From: Perna viridis
Lineage: Eukaryota
Assembly (NCBI GenBank): GCA_037379345.1
Contig: CM074512.1
Coordinates: 44,144,001-44,208,000, forward strand
Reading direction: 5' to 3'
Length of the DNA: 64,000 bases
Below are positions 4,473-62,690 of this stretch, one piece after another. A program made the translations under genes and the position numbers. A model generated the notes under the pieces. That model saw only the letters and a list, made by a program, of their open reading frames with translations, was not told the DNA's origin and did no database searches. The first letter of the stretch is position 1; each line of letters starts with the position of its first letter.

Positions 4473-4745
4473 TCATAGTTTTCCTTTTCTCTTTCGTCTA
4501 TCCCGGATTTGACTTTTTATGAGCAACTCGGCGGGTGTTTCTAGAAAAGCAGAGGATGCTTACCCTGTCGGTGCACCTGGTCCATGCTCCCAGGTTTTAG
4601 CGAAGTCTCAGTTGCTCATTTACTTTTGTTTCTTTGTATGTATTGTTTTAGTTACTTTATGTTCTTGGTTGTTTTCCATGTGTAGTCTTTGTCCCTGGAT
4701 TACATTCTTCTGATTTCCACTAGATTCTTGGTTCCCTTGATTACT
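4473..4745 (+). mobile_element. 3' UTR copy of the Penelope-like family
   Basis: Begins at the element's ORF stop (tcatag) and aligns with about 59678-59945, including atgagcaactcggcgggtgtttctagaaaagcagagg. Confidence 0.9.
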
Positions 4746-29200: not shown

Positions 29201-29234
29201 GTGTGATTAATGGTGTAATATTTTTCAACGAGTC

Positions 29235-29516
29235 AGTTTTCCTTTCGTCGTTTGTCTACCCCGGACTTGACTTTTTATGAGCAACTCGACGGGTGTTTCT
29301 AGAAAAGCAGAGCACGCTTACCCTACCGGTGCACCTGGTCCATGCTCCCAGTTTTTAGTGGAGTCCGAGTTGCACATTTGTTTTTGTTACTTTGTATGTA
29401 TGATTTTAGTTACTTGATGTTCTTTGTTGTGTATGTCTGTTTTCCATGTCTGGTCTTTGTCCCTGGATTACATTCTTTTGATTACCGCTATAACCTTGGT
29501 TCCCTTGATTACTCTT
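29235..29516 (+). mobile_element. 3' UTR copy of the Penelope-like family
   Basis: Full-length 3' UTR match to about 59683-59948. Confidence 0.9.
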
Positions 29517-29564
29517 TCTATAGTGGCCAGATTTTAAAGAGAGGTTGTGATAACCCCGAAGTAC

Positions 29565-30049: not shown

Positions 30050-30545
30050 GACGATTAGCGACTTCAGCCTATGATTTATTTAGACGCTTTCCATACTTGA
30101 ACAAAAATCAACATATTGATCACAATGACTATTTCGCGATTTTACAATATAAAGTTGAAGTCAAGAATACTCAAAATTTTGTTTCGATCATTTCTCCTTC
30201 GGAAGTGTTTTTTTATGTTTCCTCAAATCAATGTTGTCGCTTAAAAATTCTGTGACGGCCATCAATAAAACATGTCGGCCGACATGACGAGTAATATGAG
30301 GGCAGATTTGTTCAATGTGTCGAGATTTCCTCCTTCGTTTTATATATAACTTTGGGAGTGTCTGTAGAAAATGCTAAAGGTGCTTACCCTCCCAATTCAC
30401 CTGGGTCATTGCAGATGGGAATGGGATGTGAGTTCGACCGGTCTTTGTATTTACTTTTGTATATGTTGTTCTTTATTTCTGTCCATTTTCTGTCATTTGC
30501 CACTGTTCCATGTAGTATGGGCCTTGTATAATCGGATTTCACTTT
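30050..30545 (+). mobile_element. Old, diverged Penelope-like remnant
   Basis: gatttgttcaatgtgtc is identical to the ORF end at about 59663-59679; downstream gcttaccctcc...cacctg core is present. Confidence 0.6.
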
Positions 30546-31545: not shown

Positions 31546-31614
31546 TGTGCGTGTATATGCATGTATGTATGTATGTATGTATGTGCGTGTGTATGTGTGT
31601 GTGTGTGTATGTGT
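31546..31614. repeat. (TGTA)n/(TG)n compound microsatellite
   Basis: Directly visible in the sequence. Confidence 0.9.
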
Positions 31615-34589
31615 TGCAATTATTTTTTCAAGCTCAGTCTAATTTGTGCTTAATTTGGATCTTCTTTCTGCTTAAAAACTTGTAGGGCCTGTGAACATTT
31701 TTAATAGATGTAATCCGAAGATTTTTTATTGTATTTTTGTTACATTTGCCACATCCAAGTGTCGACACAAGAAGACTTTGGTTTCACATAATAATGCTGT
31801 TAGTTTCTGATACATCACAAGGAAATATTACTTATAAGGTAACATTAAATGACAAATTCATGCATACTTTCATACCAGCAGCACAAATTACTGATCTATA
31901 GATGTTTCTTATAGAATAGAAAATGTGCTTGTGGATAACAAATCCAGAAAATCAGTATTAAAATGGTATTACTAAAACGATTTGATTACTACAATTAATA
32001 AACTCCATGTGTAAACCCAAGATAATTCGGACATGGCCTAAGAGGGTCTTTAACGGAGTACTATATTGTCTTTTCCAGGTGGCACTCACCTGAGTTGACC
32101 TCCCACAGGTGTTCATTGTTCAAAGACAAAATAGTTTGTAGATTTCAAACACGTGTTTAAGTGTAAACATCGTAATGCATTTTGATTGATCCAGAAAGAT
32201 TAACATGTAGATTTCATATCCATCCATCAATTGTAAATGTATATTCCATTAAGATCTATACTGTGCTTATGAACACAAAGTGACCATCTGGGAGATTTGC
32301 TTAATAGCATCTTAAGTAAAGAGATTATAAACTCTAAAGAGTTGCCAAATACTTCAGATATCATGCTATTCGACATAACTTTGATAAGCTTTACATACAG
32401 AGGGTTTTATTCTGATAGTTTCTGTTAAATTTGTTGAAACAGGAGTTAATTTCGCGGTAAATAATACTTATCTAATGTTTCACAAAAGGTCTACCAGAGT
32501 ATTTCATTTATATTTCGAGCCTACGTTGAGATAATTACACATGTACGTCTATTCTAGTACCATGATATATTTAAAACACAACATCTGAGTCCCTGAATAT
32601 ACATGTATTTATATGTCTTATATTTGATACATAAGTTTATCGCACTTGTACTTTTAAATAACGTTGGCAGCTACCTATATTATTAACTGCATCAGATGCA
32701 TGCTCATTTAACTGATGTCTATAAGGAAAGGGTTGACCGATTAGTTTGAACATAAATATGGACTAAAATAATGAGGTTTGACTCCGCTGAGGATTCGGGT
32801 CCAGCATGTGTCAAGATTTCTGTAAACTTAATAGTGCCCGTATCTCGAGGGTTTTCCTATCATGGAAAGTAGCCCCTTGGCCATAAATCGGGTCATAAAA
32901 TCTACCGACTGTGTATGGCGTGAATTGACTACTAAAGTAGTAAAACATATTCTACGTTCTTTTCAATGCATACATGTACCATCCTTTTGGGACAGAACTA
33001 TCGCGTATGTAAGTTTAAGTTTTAAAATTCTACATGAAGCTTGAAATACTCGGCGGAAGTTTCCCTACCGGTGCACATGATGTATATCTCGTCGTGTATT
33101 TTCAGTTTCAATATTATATTTGTTGTTTCTTTCGTTGTTTTATTTGGTTGGTGTTTTTTCTTTCAATCTGATATTTAGTATTTGAATTTCGTTCTCTGTG
33201 TCACAATTTTTTGTTGTTGATTTCTTTCCAGTTTTCCACAACCGGTATCAAAAGTAAATATATACATATTGTAACTCATTTGGTATTTTCATTTCTTGGT
33301 GGAGATGTATTTGTGAGCTATATCGGCATTTTTTAAGTAAAGATTCGATTAGATCGAGCATGAAGTCACATTTTCGAAATATTTACAAAAAAAAAAAAAA
33401 AAAAAAAAAAGACATCAGCATCCTCAGCTCCTGAAGCTGTAATATAGTACCAAAAAATCTTGGGTATATGTTTGAAGTTTAATTAAAAACTGTAAAAATG
33501 TTCGGTTAAACTACCAATCTTAATAGAAGTAAACAACCCATTGGTAAAAACTATCATCCCCTTGACTTTTTTTTTATCAACTAAAACGACTTGATGCAAT
33601 TTACATTATGGTTTGATTTCTAAATTAAGTCATTTACAGGTTGAATTTCTATATAATACAATATTTGCGTTATTTAGCAATTTTATCATTTTCAGCCGCT
33701 TCCAAATCAAAGATATTTCATATGCTTAATGAGTGTACCTATATCGAAAAATATTTCATCGGCAATGCAAGCGCATTACCGTAGTCTATTTTAAATTCGT
33801 TGAAAATAAAGTATGAAACAAATGTACTTTCTACGAATTTGTTCATTCGACTATATTATTTTTTGTGTTGTTTGTTGAAATTAATAAAATTATACAAAGA
33901 TATGTATCTTTATGAGAGTTTAACTAGGATCTTTATTTTATTGCTGTCTGGATGGAAAGGTGATTTCATCTAGAAATTGTCACGTGGTGCCTTTTAACCG
34001 CTGCCACTGACGCAATGCGCGTTTGACATTTGCAACAGGATCTGATATTACTATTTTTATTGTGTTCTTTTTCCTCTCTAGTCTAAAAAGTTCACGAAAA
34101 ATATGCTCATAGGATCTTAAGATTGTAATTTAAAGCAAAAAAGATAAACTGGTAACTGAAATAATATAGCCTTTGGACGGGTTAATGAACAAAGGGTGGA
34201 TACCTTTATGGTCATAAAATGCACAAAAATGGTTACGAAAAATGTCTTTTGGCACTCCAAAAAGTACAAATTATGTGAAAATTTTATTGGTCTGTACTAA
34301 CGTAGATCTGATATTAAGACTGATTGCGAGTATTGGTTTGTATGGTAAACCAATCACTGACTGATATCTTTTTTATTGTTCAGCAAACATGATGAGCTAT
34401 TCTAAAATGGTATGATAATTGATATTGCAAATGTGAAATTTTAACAGAATATCTGGAGGATGCATTAAACAATTACCATTCCACGTGAAATATTGAGCAG
34501 TAAATCTGTATTGCATCCATGTTGTCATTTCAGATGCGTAACTCAGTTTCCATTTGTTGAACTTAAACAAGCAGAACGTACCAGATCCT

Positions 34590-54619: not shown

Positions 54620-55132
54620 GTTTGTTGATGCTTTAAATATACTTAAATTTTCATAATTTTGTTGCGAGTTAGTTTTAGTGGTATTTGTTATTTTTTAACA
54701 TATACGCATTATTGAACATCTGAATATGACCAATACTGACACCACTTTTTTATCCCTAGTTTCCCTTCCAAAATGACCACACCATTATTAATTAGATCAA
54801 AAGAAATTTGGAACAATATTGACAACCGTTTTCATCTTGAAATATTGTAAAACTACACGGAATCGGACTTGATAATTATGCACCCGTATTTGAAAGCAAG
54901 AGGCATTTGAAGAAGTTATATCAATTATGTATGATTGTAGGAGTTTTGTAGTCAATGGAGTATCATTTTATTATTAAATAAATTATATTGATTACGACTT
55001 CTACTCTTTGACAAACAGAGAAAGAGACAAATCAATACAGTAACAAATTAGACAACCATGAATAAACACTAGAACGAGTAAAAATTATCATGTACTTTAA
55101 TGCTTAAAACTAACAATAATTTTTTTTTCTAG

Positions 55133-56022
55133 AACGCAAAGGGTCCGGTTCCTGTGATGAGGACAATTGTGTCACTATGTTATTTGATGTTTCAACTATA
55201 CCAGAAGAAGAGTTGTTAACTGCTGCTGAACTCCGTGTATATCTTGATAAATATAGTGCTAGTTCTAATAATATAACGAAGAGAAAAATTCACAGACACA
55301 GGGTTGAAGTGCATGAAATTATGCAGCCAGGAAATGCAAATTCAGAAGCAGTTACGAGGTTAATAGACGTTAAACATGTGCGAGCAAAGAATGCCACGTG
55401 GGTACCGTTAGACATTCATCCCGCAGTATTAAAATGGCGGAAAACGCCTAAACTGAATCATGGTATTGAAGTGCGAGTTTCCTCTAGTAAACTGTCTCCG
55501 TCTTTTTCTAATTTTAAACATGTACGGTTACGGAGGTCAGCTTCTATAGAAGAGTCAAAGTGGCATTCACAAAGACCTATTCTAGTGACTTACACAGACG
55601 ATCAAGTGCAAAGTCGGACTAAACGTGCAGCTAATAAAAAGAGAAATAAAAAGAAGAAAAATAAGAGACGAAAAAATAGAAGAAAAAAGAAAAAGAAGAA
55701 ATTTACAAAAGCATGTAGTAGAAAACCTTTATATGTAGATTTTGATAAAGTTGGGTGGAATGATTGGATCGTGGCGCCCTCAGGTTATCACGCTTTTTAT
55801 TGTGACGGCGAATGCCGATGGCCATATGACGATCATCTAAACGCGACAAATCATGCGATAGTGCAAGACTTGATGAATTCTATACACCCGCGGTCTGTGC
55901 CTAGACCATGTTGTGTACCTACAGAACTTAAACCTATTTCTTTACTTTATATCGACGAATATGAAAAGGTTGTACTAAAAGCATACCAAGACATGATTGT
56001 CGAAGGATGCGGATGTCGGTGA
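55133..56022 (+). CDS. BMP2/4: BMP2/4 (dpp)-family preproprotein, coding exon 2: prodomain, furin sites and mature cystine-knot ligand
   Basis: Branch-point-like ctaac at 55110, polypyrimidine tract and ag ending at 55132; the phase-1 join gives [10 protein letters not shown].... Motifs: LTAAELR, RLID, RPILVTY; furin sites RLRR and RTKR; 7-Cys TGF-beta domain ([52 protein letters not shown]). Spliced CDS is 1221 nt, 406 aa. Confidence 0.97.
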
Positions 56023-56274: not shown

Positions 56275-59270
56275 CACTTGTAGTTCATTCATTTCCATTC
56301 AAACTCATCTAGTTATAGTTCTATAGCTCTAACGCCTTTCCAATGTTGCATCAATGAAATGTGTTTCAGCCCCCCCCCCATTTTTACAAAAAATCAAACT
56401 AGTAGTCTTTTGAGTAGTTGGTATATAAGGCATGTGTTTATGAATGTGTTTGATAGAGCAGAGAGTGCCCTGGAGTTTTTGTACATACAATGTTGTAAAA
56501 TAAGAAATTTTGTAATGGTACCATAAAAATGTGAAACCATTTCAAGTGTTTGTGTTATGTCTCCATTAAATCTTCAGAAATCAATAAGTGTGCACATGGT
56601 CTATTCATATTTTTAAATGATGTCAATTTGTTGAATTGGTAAACGGCGGATAAATACTTTTCACATACAGATTCGTTGTTCCACACCAAAGATTTCATTT
56701 TGCCGATGTAATTAACATCCCCCAGTGCCTGATTTATGCTTCATGTATGATGTCTTTATTTCGATCTGCATTGATATTGGCTTTGGACATGGGAGAATAA
56801 CTCTGTGACTTAAGAACGAGGTTTATTTGGGTATACAACGCTTCTATTTTAAGTGCGACGGTCATAAATCAGCGGCGATCCAAACAAGCCATACAAGCAT
56901 GTAAACACGATGGTAAGATCGGAAATACAGACAAGGACATACCTGCGATTTTACCAAAGGCAAACATGTTCGATCTGAAAGATATACACTTTATATCTTG
57001 AACATGGACTACTAAAGAGAAAACCAGGAGTTCACAAAGGAGAAACATTTAATTGTTTTAAAGGATCAAGCACAAATACGACGGCAGGGTATTTGTTTGT
57101 TTTTACCTTCGACCACTGGTGCCAGTTTGAAACCACAACGAGGTTGGATGTGCTCTAATGGAAAAAATATAATTAATTGGTAAAGAGGATCAACCACTAT
57201 AAACTTACAACAGAGCTTTTGTTTTTGTTTCAATTTATACATATGTACGGTTACTGGTGCCAGTTTCAAACCACAAACTTAGATCTGGTACAGTAAATCC
57301 TCTTATTAAAGGATCAGTATATAAAATAGGCGGACCATGAGTTAAACTACTTAATTTGTTGCGTCGTAAGGCCACAAAAAGTCACGTTGAATTAAGACTT
57401 GTTATAGTGTCGATCCAACAATACACAAGTATCATCGACACAACATCTTTACCTAACATGGTGTTGTTAAACTTCCGTCTTAAACTGGATCTAAAAGCAG
57501 ATGGACAGCCAAACATATACGTAAGACCTTACGATGCATGAGAAGGGGACGCATTTATCTCAGTTTGCGGGTATCATGGTTTTTAGTTCACAAGGAAAGC
57601 CAGAGCGGAAATGGTTCCCCTTTAGGATAAATAATGTATTGTCATTGGCCTAAATTAAGAATCAATGGGTAGAAAATATGCATGCTCTGGATACTAGGAT
57701 CAGTTTAAGGCCTTTAAAAACTTATTTCACGTTGTGCATTTTTACTTTGAAAATGAAGGTGATTACTCCCCAGTCCGATGGCTTTTCCGTTTGGTGTTTT
57801 CTTAACATTACTATGAATCAGTGTTTTTCTTTCCCACATTTATTTGATATATGCTTTTTGAGATCAGAAATTAAAAAATAAAGACAAATGTCAGACAAAA
57901 GTTGGCATATTTATATCTGAAAAGCTAGACATCCAAGGAATTGTATGGAGAAAATGTCCAAGATATGTATCCACGGTGCAAGTCAAACCTCCTTCTTTCT
58001 CTCTTCTATAACACATCGTTCAGTTATACAAAGTAACGCGTGAAAATCCCCCTGGTTAAAAATTAAAACTACAAAAAAAGATGAAAACAAAATATAAGAA
58101 ATACCCTAAGAAACACAAATCTTAAGCATTTATCGTTTTCCATCTTGTACGTTACTTGTCCGAGTTTAGTGTCGTTTACTCTTTAAAATAGTCAAACAAT
58201 CCTTGACTCTGTACAGGATTCTCTGATTTTATTCATCTGCCGCATCATCATATGTTGCTGGTATGATGTCTATATTACAATGATAGATGTAGAAGAATGT
58301 GACATTTGTACAGAGCCTTTTCAAACAAGTAAAATATGACATTCCAAAGTTGACATTATTCAAGTAATAACCTAAAGGAGCCAATAAAAAGAATTTTAAC
58401 TATTAACTATTGCAAATTGAACAAAAAGTCAATGACTATCATTTCAAGTATTAGGTACCACCTGCCGAGGTACAACCAGTGTAAAACTTTTTCCAGAAAC
58501 CTGTTTAAGACCTTGTTTTCACAAGATTTTTATCTCATTCACCAAGTTTGTCAAAAATGATTTGTGAAGTTTTCACTCTTATGACCAACTCGATGAAAGA
58601 AGGTGTGTTCTTGATAAAAAAAATCTTAATTCATTTTATGGTAAAGTGGAATTTTAAAGTCATGTTGTACTATTAGCAAATTAATTTTGAAAATGATTTT
58701 TGACATGATTTGTTGAATAGTTACACGGAGGACCTTTTAATACACTTTTAGGTTTAAGTGTCATTCTGTGATTGAGTAGAAAGTTTAGCAGGTGGCTAAA
58801 TGAAGGTTACAAAAATGAAAAATAACACGTTTTGGCTTCAGGGGGCCGCCTTGGACCTTATTCCACAAATATTTCCAATGTCTCTTTTTAAATCTGACTT
58901 GAATTTAAGAAAATTTTGCAATAATATGATTCTCCTTTTCGTCAGGTTTATTGTATGCAGTCCCTAACTTAAGAATGTTTTGGGTACTTAATAATGATAA
59001 ATTTGGTACTACAGAAATTATATTGCATTTGAAAGTTTAAATCGTTAAAAAATGTTACAAAACGTATGAAAGCATACGTTTATAGCGGATTTTGAAAAAA
59101 AATGTGTTTGTGCGTATGAAATTCGTGAAAACATCACCCCAAAAAAATCAAAGAAAAAGCACATTACTTTTACATATAAAAACACTATGGAAAACCTTAT
59201 GATTTTTATATACACAGCATGTATTTTAGTCCGAAGCATATGTAGTACATATAAACAGCTTGTATTGATG

Positions 59271-59948
59271 ATCTACCTAAAAGAATTTGAGATAAATGAT
59301 ACTACAGACACTGTGAAGTCAGTCTCATATCTTGACCTACACTTAGTTATCGATGGTTAAGGAAACCTACTGACCAAACTCTACGCGTTTGACTTTTCAT
59401 TCAGAATTGTTAACTTTCCTTTCATCTGTGGCAAGATCCCTCCAGCACCTGCGTATGGAGTTTTCATATCACAACTCATACGTTATGCCAGAACTTGCCG
59501 TAGCTACGCATACTTTTCGTATCGCGATAGACTTCTTACAATTAGGCTTCTGGAACAGGTTATGTTGCTACAAGATTGAAGTCATCATCACTACAGAAGT
59601 GTTATGGTCGCCATCATAAACTCGTGTATCGGTACGGTGTATCCATCTGCACCATGAAAGCTGATTTGTTCAATGTGTCATAGTTTTCTTTTTCTCTTTC
59701 CTCTACCCCTGACTTGACTTTTTATGAGCAACTCGGCGGGAGTTTTTAGAAAAGCAGAGGACGCTTACCCCTGCCGTTGCACCTGGTCCATGCTCCCAGT
59801 TTTTTGTGGAGTCCGAGCTGCTCATTTACTTTTTTACATTTTAATTACTTTGTTCTTTGTCGTATTTATCTGTTTTCCATGCCTGGTCTTTGTCCGTGGA
59901 TTACATTCTTTTGATTTCCGCTAGAATCTTGGTTCCTTTGATTACTCT
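59271..59948 (+). mobile_element. 5'-truncated, degenerate Penelope-like retroelement (C-terminal RT region plus 3' UTR)
   Basis: Translation IYLKEFEINDTTDTVKSVSYLDLHLVIDG*GNLLTKLY..DFSFRIVNFPFICGKIPPAPAYGVFISQLIRYARTC...LLEQ/(frameshift)GYVATRLKSS.LQKCYGRHHKLVYRYGVS...DLFNVS*, stop at 59681-59683. This resembles the PLE RT thumb region (SYLDL, KLY, PAYGV.ISQLIRY). No C-terminal GIY-YIG domain follows, consistent with permuted-domain (Naiad-type) PLEs. Confidence 0.85.
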
Positions 59949-62544
59949 TTAACTGTATTCGAATACTTCTTGGAGTTAATCTAAACTTAGTGATGAAGAC
60001 TTTGGGTGCTTTGTTCCAGTTGATCCACATAGCTTTCCATTATTGGTTCGTACCACAGTGTTTCGTGCCAGTAGACGTGTCAGCCGAACCGGAAGTAGAA
60101 TGAAAAGAGAGAATCGGATCGTATCGGTAATAGAAATCTAGCTACCTGTTATCTGTTCTTCTTTCTTTCTTTCAGTAGTTTTCCTTTCTGTCTTCATGTG
60201 AACCAACCACCGCCTTTGTTGTTTTAAAGGCAATTTATACTTATTGATAATAATTGTAAATAAGCTATCAAAGATGACATGTGTAATGGTAGTATGTCTC
60301 ATAAATCAAACACGACACGATTTTATATTTGTCATGAATAGGTGTCCTAAATTTATTAAGATCCCTTGTTTTTTTTTTACAATGACCAAGCTGTTTTCTT
60401 AGTGTTATAATTATGAAGTGCTATCCACTAGTTATGCAAAAGTATGTATAGTATTTAAGTATCAGTCTTTGTAAGAATCATGTATATAATGAAAAGTATA
60501 ATCATTCATTCCAGTCTGTCTGCTCTTTGGAGATAATTAACATTGAAAATCCAATAGCTTCTACTGTATTTAAGTCTCATTTACAAAGTTATCTCCCTTA
60601 ATTAAGAATCCTACAGTACATTCTATATAGTTTATATCTCATATGAACAAGGATTCTATGAAATTCCACATGTTATTTCTGTTTACTTAAGCATTTTAAA
60701 CAAAATATTAAAAAACAAAAAACAAAAATATGTAGGCTTTCCAACCATGCATCACATTTTGCATGATTGTTAGCTGGAGTGCTTTTAAGTAGAATTTATC
60801 AAAACGGAAATTTCTATTCTTGCTGTATGGACGAATTGCCACGTTTTTTATTTTTGACACAGATCTACTGCTAAAGCAGATATCTTAGATTAGGATGAAG
60901 AACGTTTTTATTCAGATTTTTTTCGAAGTGCAGATAAATTTCTGAAAAGAAAGTTATATTTGAGTTTATAAAGATGCTATAGCTTAAAACGTCCAGACCA
61001 TAATTTTGTTTTGTCTGAAATTAAATAACTACCTCCCGGAAAACAAAGAAAAGGTATACAAGCTCATAAATTACACGGTTATAAATATCTACGTATATGG
61101 TCGAATTTATTGTCAATAACTATGTAAAATTTATTGCCAATTGATATTATGACATTAACAAAACGTTATCCATTTTTACAGCTTATTTGTGCGCAAGTTT
61201 TGATTGTCTTAGCTTTTTTTCAGAAAGAAAAGTTCTTTGGAGTTGATGACCTCTACAGTGTAGACAGAATATTCGTGCATAACTCTTGTATCCATATTGA
61301 ATGTGACCTCGCCACATATTACAACTTTTATGGTATCCCTTTCATTGTCATAACATAAGCATGGTGGTCCATTATGCGCATAGTAGTCATACATCAAAAA
61401 GATGAAAACGTACTTCAATTAGTTCTTAAACTTTGTGGTTACAAGGATTAGTTGTTCTTTGAAATGCATCGTTGATTTGGGACAAGTCATACCAGAAAAG
61501 ACGTATCTTTAACAATTTGTATAATATTATCAAAAATAACGAATCGTGGACAGTGTTGACACACCTTTTGTGTCACGCTTTAGGTAATAATTCATGTGAA
61601 ATTCAGGATATGAGTTTAAGCGTCTGTGTATCTTTGGCGGTGATAGTATTAAGCTCAAACAAAAACAGTACTTTGAATCAGAAATCGTCTGTTGTCGCCA
61701 TCTTGACTGGGTATGGTCAAACTAAAAACCACAATTAGGATACAAGAAAGGTTATTGTGTGTCAAAGTACACCCACTGATACTTCAGAATACTTGTCCCC
61801 ACTTATTATATTTCAAGGGCTATATTATAACCCTAAAGTAGGAAATTGCTACCAATATATAACGACATCACCGTGATTGTTTCGCCATTTATGCTCGACA
61901 CCTGCTGGAAATATCGACACAACTCGGTGCGTTCCTCAACAAATCTTTTATTGTTTTGCTCAGTATTTGGTCCGTTTATGGATGTGAGTGAGGTGCAACA
62001 TTGTATCAATGAGATTGTCTAGAACATCTTGTACACTATTTTAAGTACAGTACAATCAAAGTTCGAAATCGCATGATGTCGCCATTCATACATCACTATT
62101 TTTTATATACTTTTGTATATGATTGAATAGCGCATTCTACAAATACACGCACCTGTTACTAAAATACAAGTATACATGTAAAAAAATAATGGCATTGAGT
62201 AATTTCAGGCAGTGGTTAGACACGGGGAAGTCATTTAACACGCAGTCAACGTGAAGTTTTGTTTTCTGCATTTCCTGCTCTATGGATATGATCATGAATT
62301 ACATGTATTCTCAAACCTAACGTTGGAGCATTGTTTTAGATTAGATAGTTGTTTTTCGTCAAAACAGTAAATCTCTTTTTGTACACTAGTATATATAGCA
62401 CCTCATGTGATTTCAAAAGCGCCTTTTGTGAGAAACAAAACAATATGAATGATAACTCCCTAATGCCAGTAGTGTTTGACACGTGTCGCCGAGTTGCATT
62501 ATTGTAGCTATAATATTAACGGATTATACTCATTTGCTTTGCAA

Positions 62545-62690
62545 TATGGTGGGTGCCGCTTGTGGACAAGGACATGCTTAAACTTCCGGGACACCTGATG
62601 TCAATCCCGGTTTTATTGCTAGTGCTTTAGTTTTTTGTGTGACGTCTTGTTTCTCTTATCTTCAGTTTTTGTGTGTAATCTTTTTAAACT
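62545..62690 (+). mobile_element. Related retroelement 3' end, more distant subfamily
   Basis: gggtgcc...catgcttaaacttccgggacacctga follows the same gggtg...gctta...ccgg..cacctg layout, then a T/G-rich tail. Confidence 0.55.

What the first reader, a model, noticed from the sequence alone, without database searches (positions are those of the whole stretch)
29277..29377. Conserved ~100 nt multi-stem RNA element just 3' of the Penelope-like RT stop codon
Seen in copies at 4519, 29277 and 59724: P1 atgagcaactcgg / ccgagttgctcat (13 bp in consensus), P2 cgggtgt / gcacctg, P3 aagc-agagNaY-gctt and P4 gctcc...ggagt, around a conserved gcttaccct core. More distant copies (about 30350-30440, 33051-33080, 62545-62620) keep gggtg...gctta...cacctg while the stem sequences change (e.g. 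gcaata/tattgc at about 62541/62614), which suggests covariation. It has no hammerhead core (CUGANGA/GAAA) and I cannot fit it to an HDV-like ribozyme or canonical SECIS geometry. Known: PLEs often carry ribozymes and some Naiad PLEs carry SECIS elements. Inference: a possibly uncharacterised cis-acting RNA, such as an RT recognition element, stability element or novel ribozyme.
Basis: partly seen in the sequence, partly recalled or inferred. Interest (0 to 1): 0.7.

Follow-up and report, generated by a model that had tools for sequence, protein, structure and literature searches.

The report
Twin-palindrome RNA of Naiad retrotransposons
The tail of a very abundant jumping gene carries a folded RNA, conserved from jellyfish relatives to fish, with two self-complementary stretches that likely pair two RNA copies together around a core resembling a known self-cutting RNA, so it may cut itself, which has not been tested.

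Summary
Real. The motif starts 40 nt after the stop codon of a Naiad Penelope-like retrotransposon (8,327 exact-core copies, control 0; no Rfam hit). It is in 12 of 54 published Naiad consensi (cnidarian, bivalves, hemichordates, fish).

Two loop-less palindromes (10 nt; 6-8 nt) flank the core. They change sequence between families yet stay self-complementary to the innermost pair (12 of 12 published families; 81 of 87 metagenome copies). This points to pairing between two RNA molecules. P1 covaries; P4 weakly; the proposed P3 does not.

The invariant core (GCAG...GCUYA) maps onto the twister-sister catalytic loop but lacks A7, SL4 and a normal P1, so it is not a class member. Other Naiads fill this slot with a twister-type motif, also with two palindromes; the scan noted that sibling before on other DNA, but my look-ups did not find this motif.

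Best reading: an RNA-dimer module (0.85) that likely self-cleaves as a dimer (0.45). Insertion ends and RNA reads show no sharp cut; only a weak 2-3-fold excess lies at the predicted site. Not found in print in 10 searches.

The parts
29221..29518 (+). 5'-truncated Naiad insertion (end of ORF region plus whole 3' UTR) that carries the motif
   Evidence: 93.7% to full-length copy L031
29277..29289 (+). P1 5' strand
   Evidence: covaries across families
29290..29295 (+). P2 5' strand CGGGUG
   Evidence: near-invariant; G-U/G-C exchange only; fixed by my search pattern, so not independent
29296..29305 (+). Palindrome 1 (UUUCUAGAAA), 10 nt, no loop; predicted intermolecular 10-bp helix
   Evidence: 5 of 5 pairs with double changes; 12 of 12 published families; cofold
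29307..29310 (+). Core strand GCAG (maps on twister-sister G5 C6 [A7 missing] A8 G9)
   Evidence: CAG in 12 of 12 and G in 10 of 12 published families; mapping
29311..29315 (+). 5-nt cap, predicted one pair plus triloop, in place of twister-sister P2/P4
   Evidence: first-last pair kept in 15 of 18; A-C in this family
29316..29321 (+). Core strand GCUUAC (maps on G59 C60 U61 C62 A63 U64); predicted scissile bond between 29319 and 29320
   Evidence: GCU-Y-AC in 12 of 12 published families; cleavage untested
29324..29331 (+). Palindrome 2 (UACCGGUG), 6-8 nt, no loop; predicted second intermolecular helix
   Evidence: 3 of 4 pairs with double changes; 12 of 12 published families
29332..29337 (+). 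P2 3' strand CACCUG
29344..29364 (+). P4 hairpin after a 5-6-nt linker; variable length
   Evidence: 2 of 5 pairs with double changes, 71% paired
29365..29377 (+). P1 3' strand
4515..4632 (+). Second copy, main family
   Evidence: 85 bits
59247..59950 (+). Third copy with decayed RT C-terminus (59247-59674) and motif (59720-59838)
   Evidence: tblastn E 1e-49; 73 bits
23033..23267 (+). Copy with deletion of P1 5' strand, P2 5' strand and part of palindrome 1
62533..62636 (+). Decayed copy of a second, older family (intact palindrome CCGCCGGCGG in L089)
   Evidence: 59 bits
30333..30482 (+). Possible very distant copy
   Evidence: E 0.19 only; 26-nt match to RT end upstream

Best explanation
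This is a conserved structured RNA in the 3' UTR of Naiad retrotransposons whose two loop-less palindromes likely pair two element RNAs into a dimer, and whose invariant core, which matches most of the twister-sister catalytic loop, is predicted to cut the RNA at U/C-A once that dimer forms. Shown: position, spread across four phyla, covariation of P1 and of both palindromes down to their innermost pair, invariance of the core. Inferred: (1) palindrome 1 (10 bp, about one helical turn) and palindrome 2 pair between molecules, or between tandem copies in one transcript, with P2/P1 either intramolecular or swapped; (2) these helices stand in for the missing supporting helix P1 and so hold the loop G-C-A-G / G-C-U-Y-A-C in a twister-sister-like fold (A-U and G-C pairs with a bulged G forming a base triple); (3) cleavage 5' of the conserved A (window 29319/29320) would trim tandem or read-through transcripts, the role proposed for the dimeric hammerheads of other Penelope-like elements. 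Odds: dimer 0.85; cleavage 0.45.
For: Palindrome 1: self-complementary in 12 of 12 published families carrying the motif (9 perfect, 3 with one G-U; read by eye). Innermost pair Watson-Crick in 81 of 87 unselected metagenome copies, in all four pair types; 0.87 against a shuffled 0.42 on 45 distinct 10-mers, 0 of 10,000 shuffles. 5 of 5 pairs with double changes; whole structure 88% paired against 37-46% when slid. Palindrome 2: 12 of 12 published families; 3 of 4 pairs with double changes. Forced hairpins are unstable (-1.2 to +4.1 and +5.0 to +5.8 kcal/mol); self-duplexes are -8.8 to -23 for palindrome 1 and -8.9 to -10.7 for palindrome 2 in 13 of 15. Cofolding favours the dimer in 15 of 15 by 5-17 kcal/mol, with the palindrome-1 duplex in the optimum in 11 of 15. 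G-U rather than A-C substitutions point to the sense RNA. Core: residues C6, A8, G9, G59, C60, U61, Y62, A63 of twister-sister L1 are all present in 12 of 12, G5 in 10 of 12; C62U cleaves in twister sister; RNAalifold itself picks the A-U and G-C pairs of that register. Slot: 5 published bivalve Naiads carry a twister-type motif with two palindromes instead, also present in this genome, 5 of 30 such loci with Naiad RT upstream and none of those 5 with this motif. Precedent: hammerheads of other PLEs have palindromic stem III and cleave as dimers (PMC4209133, PMC6765202). Weak support: about 34 of 70 listed junctions in +20..+33 fall at +26..+29, 6 at +30..+33.
Against: No cleavage or dimer experiment. 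Twister-sister features not met: no SL4, A7 missing, no normal P1, U64 is C (the equivalent A12C nearly kills the LINE-1 ribozyme, RA' 0.03). The G5 position is A or C in 2 of 12 published families and in 17 of 87 metagenome copies (A, T or C); G5A/C/U kill twister sister. In a 5-nt register only Naiad-2_Chem matches G5-C6. The mapping was made after seeing the motif. Genomic 5' ends are dispersed: none of 129 local copies starts at +28/+29; 13 of 21 independent full-length copies have an upstream repeat that runs past the motif, and 1 starts at +28; genome-wide junction counts per window are 9.6, 13.7 and 7.9 per anchor, and the small peak sits on the only TTA in a GC-rich stretch, so microhomology could explain it. 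One RNA run (25,206 reads laid) shows no pile-up of ends; the proven PAc hammerhead also shows none. 141 of 153 insertion clusters are single copies. Naiad-1_Chem has this motif and is also flagged HHR_core, so the slots are not strictly exclusive. The 18 sequences of alignment A1 were chosen by me as best copies and are related, which inflates percent paired.
Confidence: 0.45

Rival explanations
1. Non-catalytic dimerization and RNP-assembly element: the palindromes pair two Naiad RNAs, as the retroviral dimer initiation site does (recalled), and the invariant core is a structural or protein-binding module, perhaps a dead twister-sister relic. The dimer would supply a second template for tandem and inverted insertions.
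For: All palindrome evidence above. Twister-sister deviations; G5 position tolerates change; no sharp 5' end. Every one of 30 full-length copies is preceded exactly by a 3' end. PAc protein is predicted to be a dimer and hammerhead cleavage is dispensable for insertion in vitro.
Against: Nine core positions agree with a known catalytic loop, including the pyrimidine freedom at the scissile position. Sister families hold twister-type folds in the same slot. Compound insertions are only 12 of 153 clusters.
Confidence: 0.4
2. Monomeric RT-recognition or stability element in which the palindromes are tiny hairpins.
For: P1/P2/P4 form a plausible three-way junction in one molecule. RT truncations are somewhat denser across the motif than upstream.
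Against: Loop bases would not stay complementary through four pair types. The hairpins are unstable. A different motif, at the 5' start of the next copy, is shared by families with either 3' motif and folds into a -24.5 kcal/mol hairpin next to the insertion 3' ends.
Confidence: 0.1
3. DNA-level feature: palindromic sites in double-stranded DNA or cDNA bound by a protein dimer.
For: Perfect palindromes are typical of dimeric DNA-binding sites (general knowledge).
Against: Sequence changes freely while symmetry is kept. G-U, not A-C, departures in published consensi (3 to 0 in palindrome 1) and a U-G terminal pair of palindrome 2 in 67 of 87 copies. P1 has many G-U pairs.
Confidence: 0.05

Closest known systems
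Twister-sister ribozyme, loop L1 (Zheng et al. 2017, PMC5660989; passages read)
   Same: G-C..A-G opposite G-C-U-Y-A; A8-U61 and G9-C60 pairs with extruded G59 possible; pyrimidine-A scissile step.
   Different: No SL4, no A7, P2 reduced to one pair and a triloop, P1 replaced by two palindromic helices, U64 is C, G5 not universal; eukaryotic retrotransposon; predicted dimer.
[quoted passage not shown]
   Same: L1-like loop without SL4 can cleave; Naiad-2_Chem has the OR4K15 strand GCCAG.
   Different: Those need two real stems, are not conserved and have no clear function; here conserved over four phyla, with C at the position where A12C inactivates.
Dimeric minimal hammerheads of Penelope-like elements (PMC4209133, PMC6765202, PMC11167929; passages read; Lunse et al. 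not held)
   Same: Same element class, position in the terminal repeat, palindrome that supplies a missing helix by pairing two copies.
   Different: No CUGANGA/GAAA core; two long palindromes instead of one short one.
Twister-type motif of other Naiads (Mgal, Bpla, Mphi, Scon, Mmer; earlier scan notes)
   Same: 3' UTR slot, two loop-less palindromes.
   Different: Twister core with pseudoknots; palindromes lie between the core halves, not around the core.
Retroviral dimer initiation site (recalled, no call)
   Same: Covarying self-complementary sequence for RNA-RNA pairing in a retroelement.
   Different: One 6-nt palindrome in a hairpin loop near the 5' end; no catalytic-like core.

Membership tests
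Naiad Penelope-like element (host) | N-terminal GIY-YIG endonuclease with CCHH | tested here: met
   Pfam GIY-YIG E 4e-4, just under the cut-off; motif visible in L031
Naiad Penelope-like element (host) | CxC linker, DKA motif, C-terminal RT | tested here: met
   DCSC, ADKA and RT up to the stop; RVT_1 weak, E 0.006; features
Naiad Penelope-like element (host) | Partial tandems (pLTR), inverted truncated copies | tested here: met
   30 of 30 full-length 5' ends preceded by a 3' end; inverted copy in L033
Twister-sister ribozyme | L1 residues A8, G9, G59, C60, U61, C62/any, A63 and C6 | tested here: met
   12 of 12 published families in the register with A7 deleted
Twister-sister ribozyme | G5 | tested here: inconclusive
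   10 of 12 published families; 70 of 87 metagenome copies
Twister-sister ribozyme | 5-nt L1 strand with extruded A7, and G5-U64 pair | tested here: not met
   4-nt strand; C at position 64 in 12 of 12
Twister-sister ribozyme | P4-SL4 loop and 3- or 4-way junction beyond P2 | tested here: not met
   only 5 nt between the core strands; no Rfam hit
Twister-sister ribozyme | Mg-dependent self-cleavage at C-A | not testable with these tools
   indirect tests inconclusive
TS-like lantern ribozyme | Two stems of 5-6 bp flanking the loop | tested here: not met
   one pair plus triloop on one side, no consistent stem on the other
Hammerhead ribozyme | CUGANGA and GAAA core | tested here: not met
   absent from the aligned motif; no Rfam hit
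SECIS element | Conserved AUGA/GA quartet and in-frame UGA codons | tested here: not met
   AUGA is paired in P1 and not conserved; zinc-finger cysteines are Cys codons in L031; SECISearch not available
HDV-like, twister, pistol, hatchet, hairpin ribozymes | Rfam model match | tested here: not met
   cmscan E<=5; Rfam also misses the twister-type sibling, so this test is weak for variants
RNA dimerization signal | Self-complementary segment covarying to the innermost pair | tested here: met
RNA dimerization signal | Physical dimer | not testable with these tools
   predicted only

The most novel reading that the evidence does not exclude
A new kind of self-cleaving RNA: a twister-sister-derived active site stripped of its tertiary loop and rebuilt by two intermolecular palindromic helices, active only as a dimer and conserved in Naiad retrotransposons from cnidarians to fish. 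Naiads would then all keep a dimer-gated ribozyme slot filled by interchangeable catalytic cores (twister-sister-like, twister, hammerhead).
Probability: 0.4. Interest if true: 0.88.

Novelty: new variant of a known kind. Interest (0 to 1): 0.76.

Why it matters
Naiads reach tens of thousands of copies per genome and were reported to lack the hammerhead that other Penelope-like elements carry (PMC8557442). This motif gives a 50-nt, directly testable answer to what sits in that slot. If it cleaves, it is a conserved eukaryotic twister-sister-like ribozyme with an architecture I did not find in print. Even if it does not cleave, covarying double palindromes are evidence that a non-LTR-type retroelement dimerizes its RNA, which bears on the open question of how Penelope-like elements make tandem and inverted insertions.

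Tried and rejected
Rfam on the window and on 20 twister-type loci: nothing relevant. Pattern scan of viral contigs: 0. PDB search with the RT C-terminus: 0. Hairpin N1-N5/ACYC pairing and an alternative GGGUG/YACYC helix: considered by eye; not consistent across families, or not separable from P2. Search for a cleavage-defined 5' end: inconclusive. No RNA holder was listed for the stretch; one raw RNA run of the same species shows reads on both strands from many passenger copies and no end pile-up; DNA contigs gave no useful loose-end table. Two-template insertions: only 12 of 153 clusters compound. Rows dropped: of 121 metagenome loci, 87 motif instances were kept; the others failed the fixed spacing or had GC-rich flanks (chance bacterial matches); most kept copies come from one assembly. 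In one search, 4 of 146 rows were dropped for GC. R-scape and a phylogeny-corrected covariation test were not available. Only 1.26 Mb of the genome was held in blocks, so junction statistics are thin. Lunse et al. (PMC5785218) is not held and was not read.

Full report
1. Observation. The three copies and their stems are in the window as described. Positions below count from the first G of GGGTG (window 29291 = 0). The 29277 copy is a 5'-truncated insertion, 29221-29518. A tight core pattern matches 8,327 times in the 723-Mb genome and 0 times when reversed. A covariance model finds 114 matches in 1.0 Mb and 5 strong ones in the window. Within the main family the motif decays like its flanks (majority letter at 0.84-0.99 of copies per motif position), so conservation is at the level of the element, not the host. 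Rfam has nothing on it at E<=5.

2. Host element. A full-length copy (L031) encodes an N-terminal GIY-YIG domain, a CxC linker, a DKA motif and a C-terminal RT: a Naiad in the sense of Craig et al. 2021 (PMC8557442; passages of the main text; supplement searched and part 1 read). P1 starts 40 nt after the stop; the element ends near +228. All 30 full-length 5' ends examined are preceded exactly by a 3' end. The host is likely a bivalve (inference from the element's relatives).

3. Spread. In the 54 published Naiad consensi I saw the motif in 12: Naiad-1 and -2_Chem (Clytia), CGi, Sglo, Olur, Tgra, Pmar, Naiad-1 and -2_Skow, Naiad-1 and -2_Pfla, and the last record of the file, taken to be Cmel. 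Eleven came from an exact text search for CGGGTG, which misses hits broken by line ends; one came from viewing 3' ends. I viewed the last 350-400 nt of 37 of the 54. A metagenome scan gave 121 loci, 87 usable instances. A second, older family exists in this genome.

4. The palindromes. The 10 nt after CGGGUG are self-complementary with no loop in 12 of 12 published families: ACTCTAGAGT, GCTCGCGGGC, TGACCGGTCA (twice), TGACCGGTCG, TAGCTAGCTA, TTGCATGCAA, CCACATGTGG (twice), TAGCATGCTA, CGGCTAGCTG, ACACTAGTGT; 9 are perfect and 3 have one G-U. The fetched loci add TTTCTAGAAA (this family), CCACTAGTGG, TCTTATAAGA, TCCTTAAGGA, CCGTCGACGG, CCTTTAAAGG, TCGCATGCGA, TCCTGCAGGA and CCGCCGGCGG. My patterns left these positions free. 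The innermost pair is Watson-Crick in 81 of 87 unselected copies, in all four types; on 45 distinct 10-mers 0.87 against 0.42 shuffled, 0 of 10,000 (copies are related, so this is not a clean probability). The 6-8 nt before CACCYG are a second loop-less palindrome in 12 of 12 (TGGCCA, TGGTACCA, CCTAGG, CCATGG, TCCGGA, CCTGGG with a wobble, TTTCGAAA, TGTCGACA); its innermost pair is Watson-Crick in 57 of 87 decayed copies (a CpG site in most). On 18 chosen representatives, double changes occur in 5 of 5 pairs of palindrome 1, 3 of 4 of palindrome 2, 7 of 8 of P1, 2 of 5 of P4 and 0 of 6 of P2 (fixed by the pattern); 88% of cells pair against 37-46% when slid. Adjacent bases cannot pair in one strand, and forced hairpins are unstable, whereas self-duplexes are stable and cofolding favours a dimer in 15 of 15. 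I infer pairing between two RNAs, or between tandem copies in one transcript. In the commonest cofold optimum P2 is swapped and continues palindrome 1 as a 22-bp helix; a 10-bp spacer would put both looped-out cores on one face, where the second palindromes could meet. That geometry is my inference.

5. The core. CAG, a 5-nt spacer and GCU-Y-AC are present in 12 of 12 published families, which were not retrieved by these letters. RNAalifold instead pairs A+18 with U+27 and G+19 with C+26. That is the register of twister-sister loop L1: G5, C6, A7 (extruded), A8, G9 opposite G59, C60, U61, C62, A63, U64, with A8-U61, G9-C60 and a G59 triple, cleavage at C62-A63, C62U active (PMC5660989, passages; PMC11620745, passages and sections 10-11). 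With A7 deleted, eight residues agree in 12 of 12 and G5 in 10 of 12. Against: no SL4, no A7, no normal P1, C at 64 (A12C nearly inactivates the LINE-1 ribozyme), and G5 replaced in Tgra, Chem-2 and 17 of 87 metagenome copies although G5A/C/U kill twister sister. It is therefore not a member of the class; it may work like one.

6. The slot. Five published bivalve Naiads (Mgal, Bpla, Mphi, Scon, Mmer) show, in the 3' ends I saw, not this motif but a twister-type one (GAGG, UAA, P4 loop with CCAAG, second pseudoknot covarying AC/GU and CC/GG by eye; layout of twister recalled) with two palindromes where P1 should be. It occurs in this genome (118 matches, 49 for the near-symmetric reversed control; sequences); 5 of 30 loci have Naiad RT upstream and none of those 5 has the present motif. 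I saw this before the look-up; earlier scan notes agree. Hammerheads of other PLEs have a palindromic stem III and cleave weakly as dimers (PMC4209133, passages; PMC6765202, passages); the PAc hammerhead needs protein, is dispensable for insertion in vitro and leaves no RNA-seq ends (PMC11167929, passages). One exception: Naiad-1_Chem has this motif and is flagged HHR_core.

7. Indirect tests of cleavage at +28/+29. Upstream repeats of 21 independent full-length copies start at scattered places: 13 upstream of the motif, 5 in +17..+42 (one at +28), 3 near +185 (8 loci of one tandem array and 1 duplicate set aside). Of 129 local copies, 13 start in +15..+27, 4 in +28..+54, none at +28/+29. Genome-wide junction patterns gave 345, 670 and 355 matches for +6..+19, +20..+33 and +34..+47, or 9.6, 13.7 and 7.9 per local anchor. 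Of the 100 listed for the middle window I read about 70 as junctions: 13 at or before +20, 17 at +21..+25, 34 at +26..+29, 6 at +30..+33. This 2-3-fold peak fits a cut with short microhomology, but also microhomology alone. RNA reads show no end pile-up. Verdict: inconclusive.

8. Novelty. Ten searches of the held library found no description of this motif; Craig et al. report only the lack of canonical hammerheads, some hammerhead cores and SECIS elements. Also seen: bioRxiv 10.64898/2026.07.22.740005 (first 10,000 characters), PMC6154101, PMC11662667 and PMC10085705 (passages). Subscription papers, Repbase or Dfam notes and the supplements of PMC11662667 were not seen and could hold related sequences. 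The scan's own index returned nothing by sequence or by the words used.

9. Verdict. A real, apparently undescribed RNA module of Naiad retrotransposons. Dimerization is well supported by covariation (0.85); self-cleavage by a twister-sister-like core is the single most likely function but is untested (0.45). New variant of a known kind; interest 0.76.

Noticed in passing
L376-L405 (e.g. L390, L388, L383); supplement 3' ends of Mgal, Bpla, Mphi, Scon, Mmer: Twister-type motif with two palindromes in place of P1 in an old Naiad family of this genome; Rfam does not detect it.
   Followed up: partly
L318 minus strand, first 65 nt after the pLTR junction; 5' starts: The 5' start of Naiads (CTGCTGGTGGA...TCCCC.AGG) is conserved across bivalves, hemichordates and fish and folds into a -24.5 kcal/mol hairpin right behind the insertion 3' ends: a candidate RT-binding or initiation element.
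   Followed up: partly
G000:C3:46.03-46.08 Mb (L333, L334, L339-L345): Head-to-tail array of about 15 full-length Naiad units with a period near 3,409 bp; another array on C6 near 47.14 Mb with a period near 5.1 kb.
   Followed up: no
Supplement, Chlamys consensi, parts 29-32: Some Chlamys elements also have a GACGGGTG...CACCCGTC helix, enclosing a GGGGA-capped hairpin instead of palindromes; possibly related to P2.
   Followed up: no
Supplement, Naiad-1 and -2_Chem, upstream of the motif: A second conserved, apparently paired element about 130-190 nt upstream of the motif in both Clytia families.
   Followed up: no
Supplement, Naiad-1_Movir 3' end: GCAG...GCUGAG followed by two palindromes (GGGTACCC, CACATGTG): perhaps a rearranged relative.
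   Followed up: no
Listings; L261:6495-6602: Recurring short internal deletions inside the core (e.g. joining AAAAGC to TACTC), as if RT skipped a small hairpin.
   Followed up: no
window 55120-56022 (+): Last exon of a BMP2/4/dpp-type TGF-beta gene (Pfam TGF_beta E 4e-37; subfamily by eye); most window copies lie on its strand.
   Followed up: no
window 31553-31622: (TATG)n/(TG)n microsatellite giving a spurious mir-297 match.
   Followed up: yes
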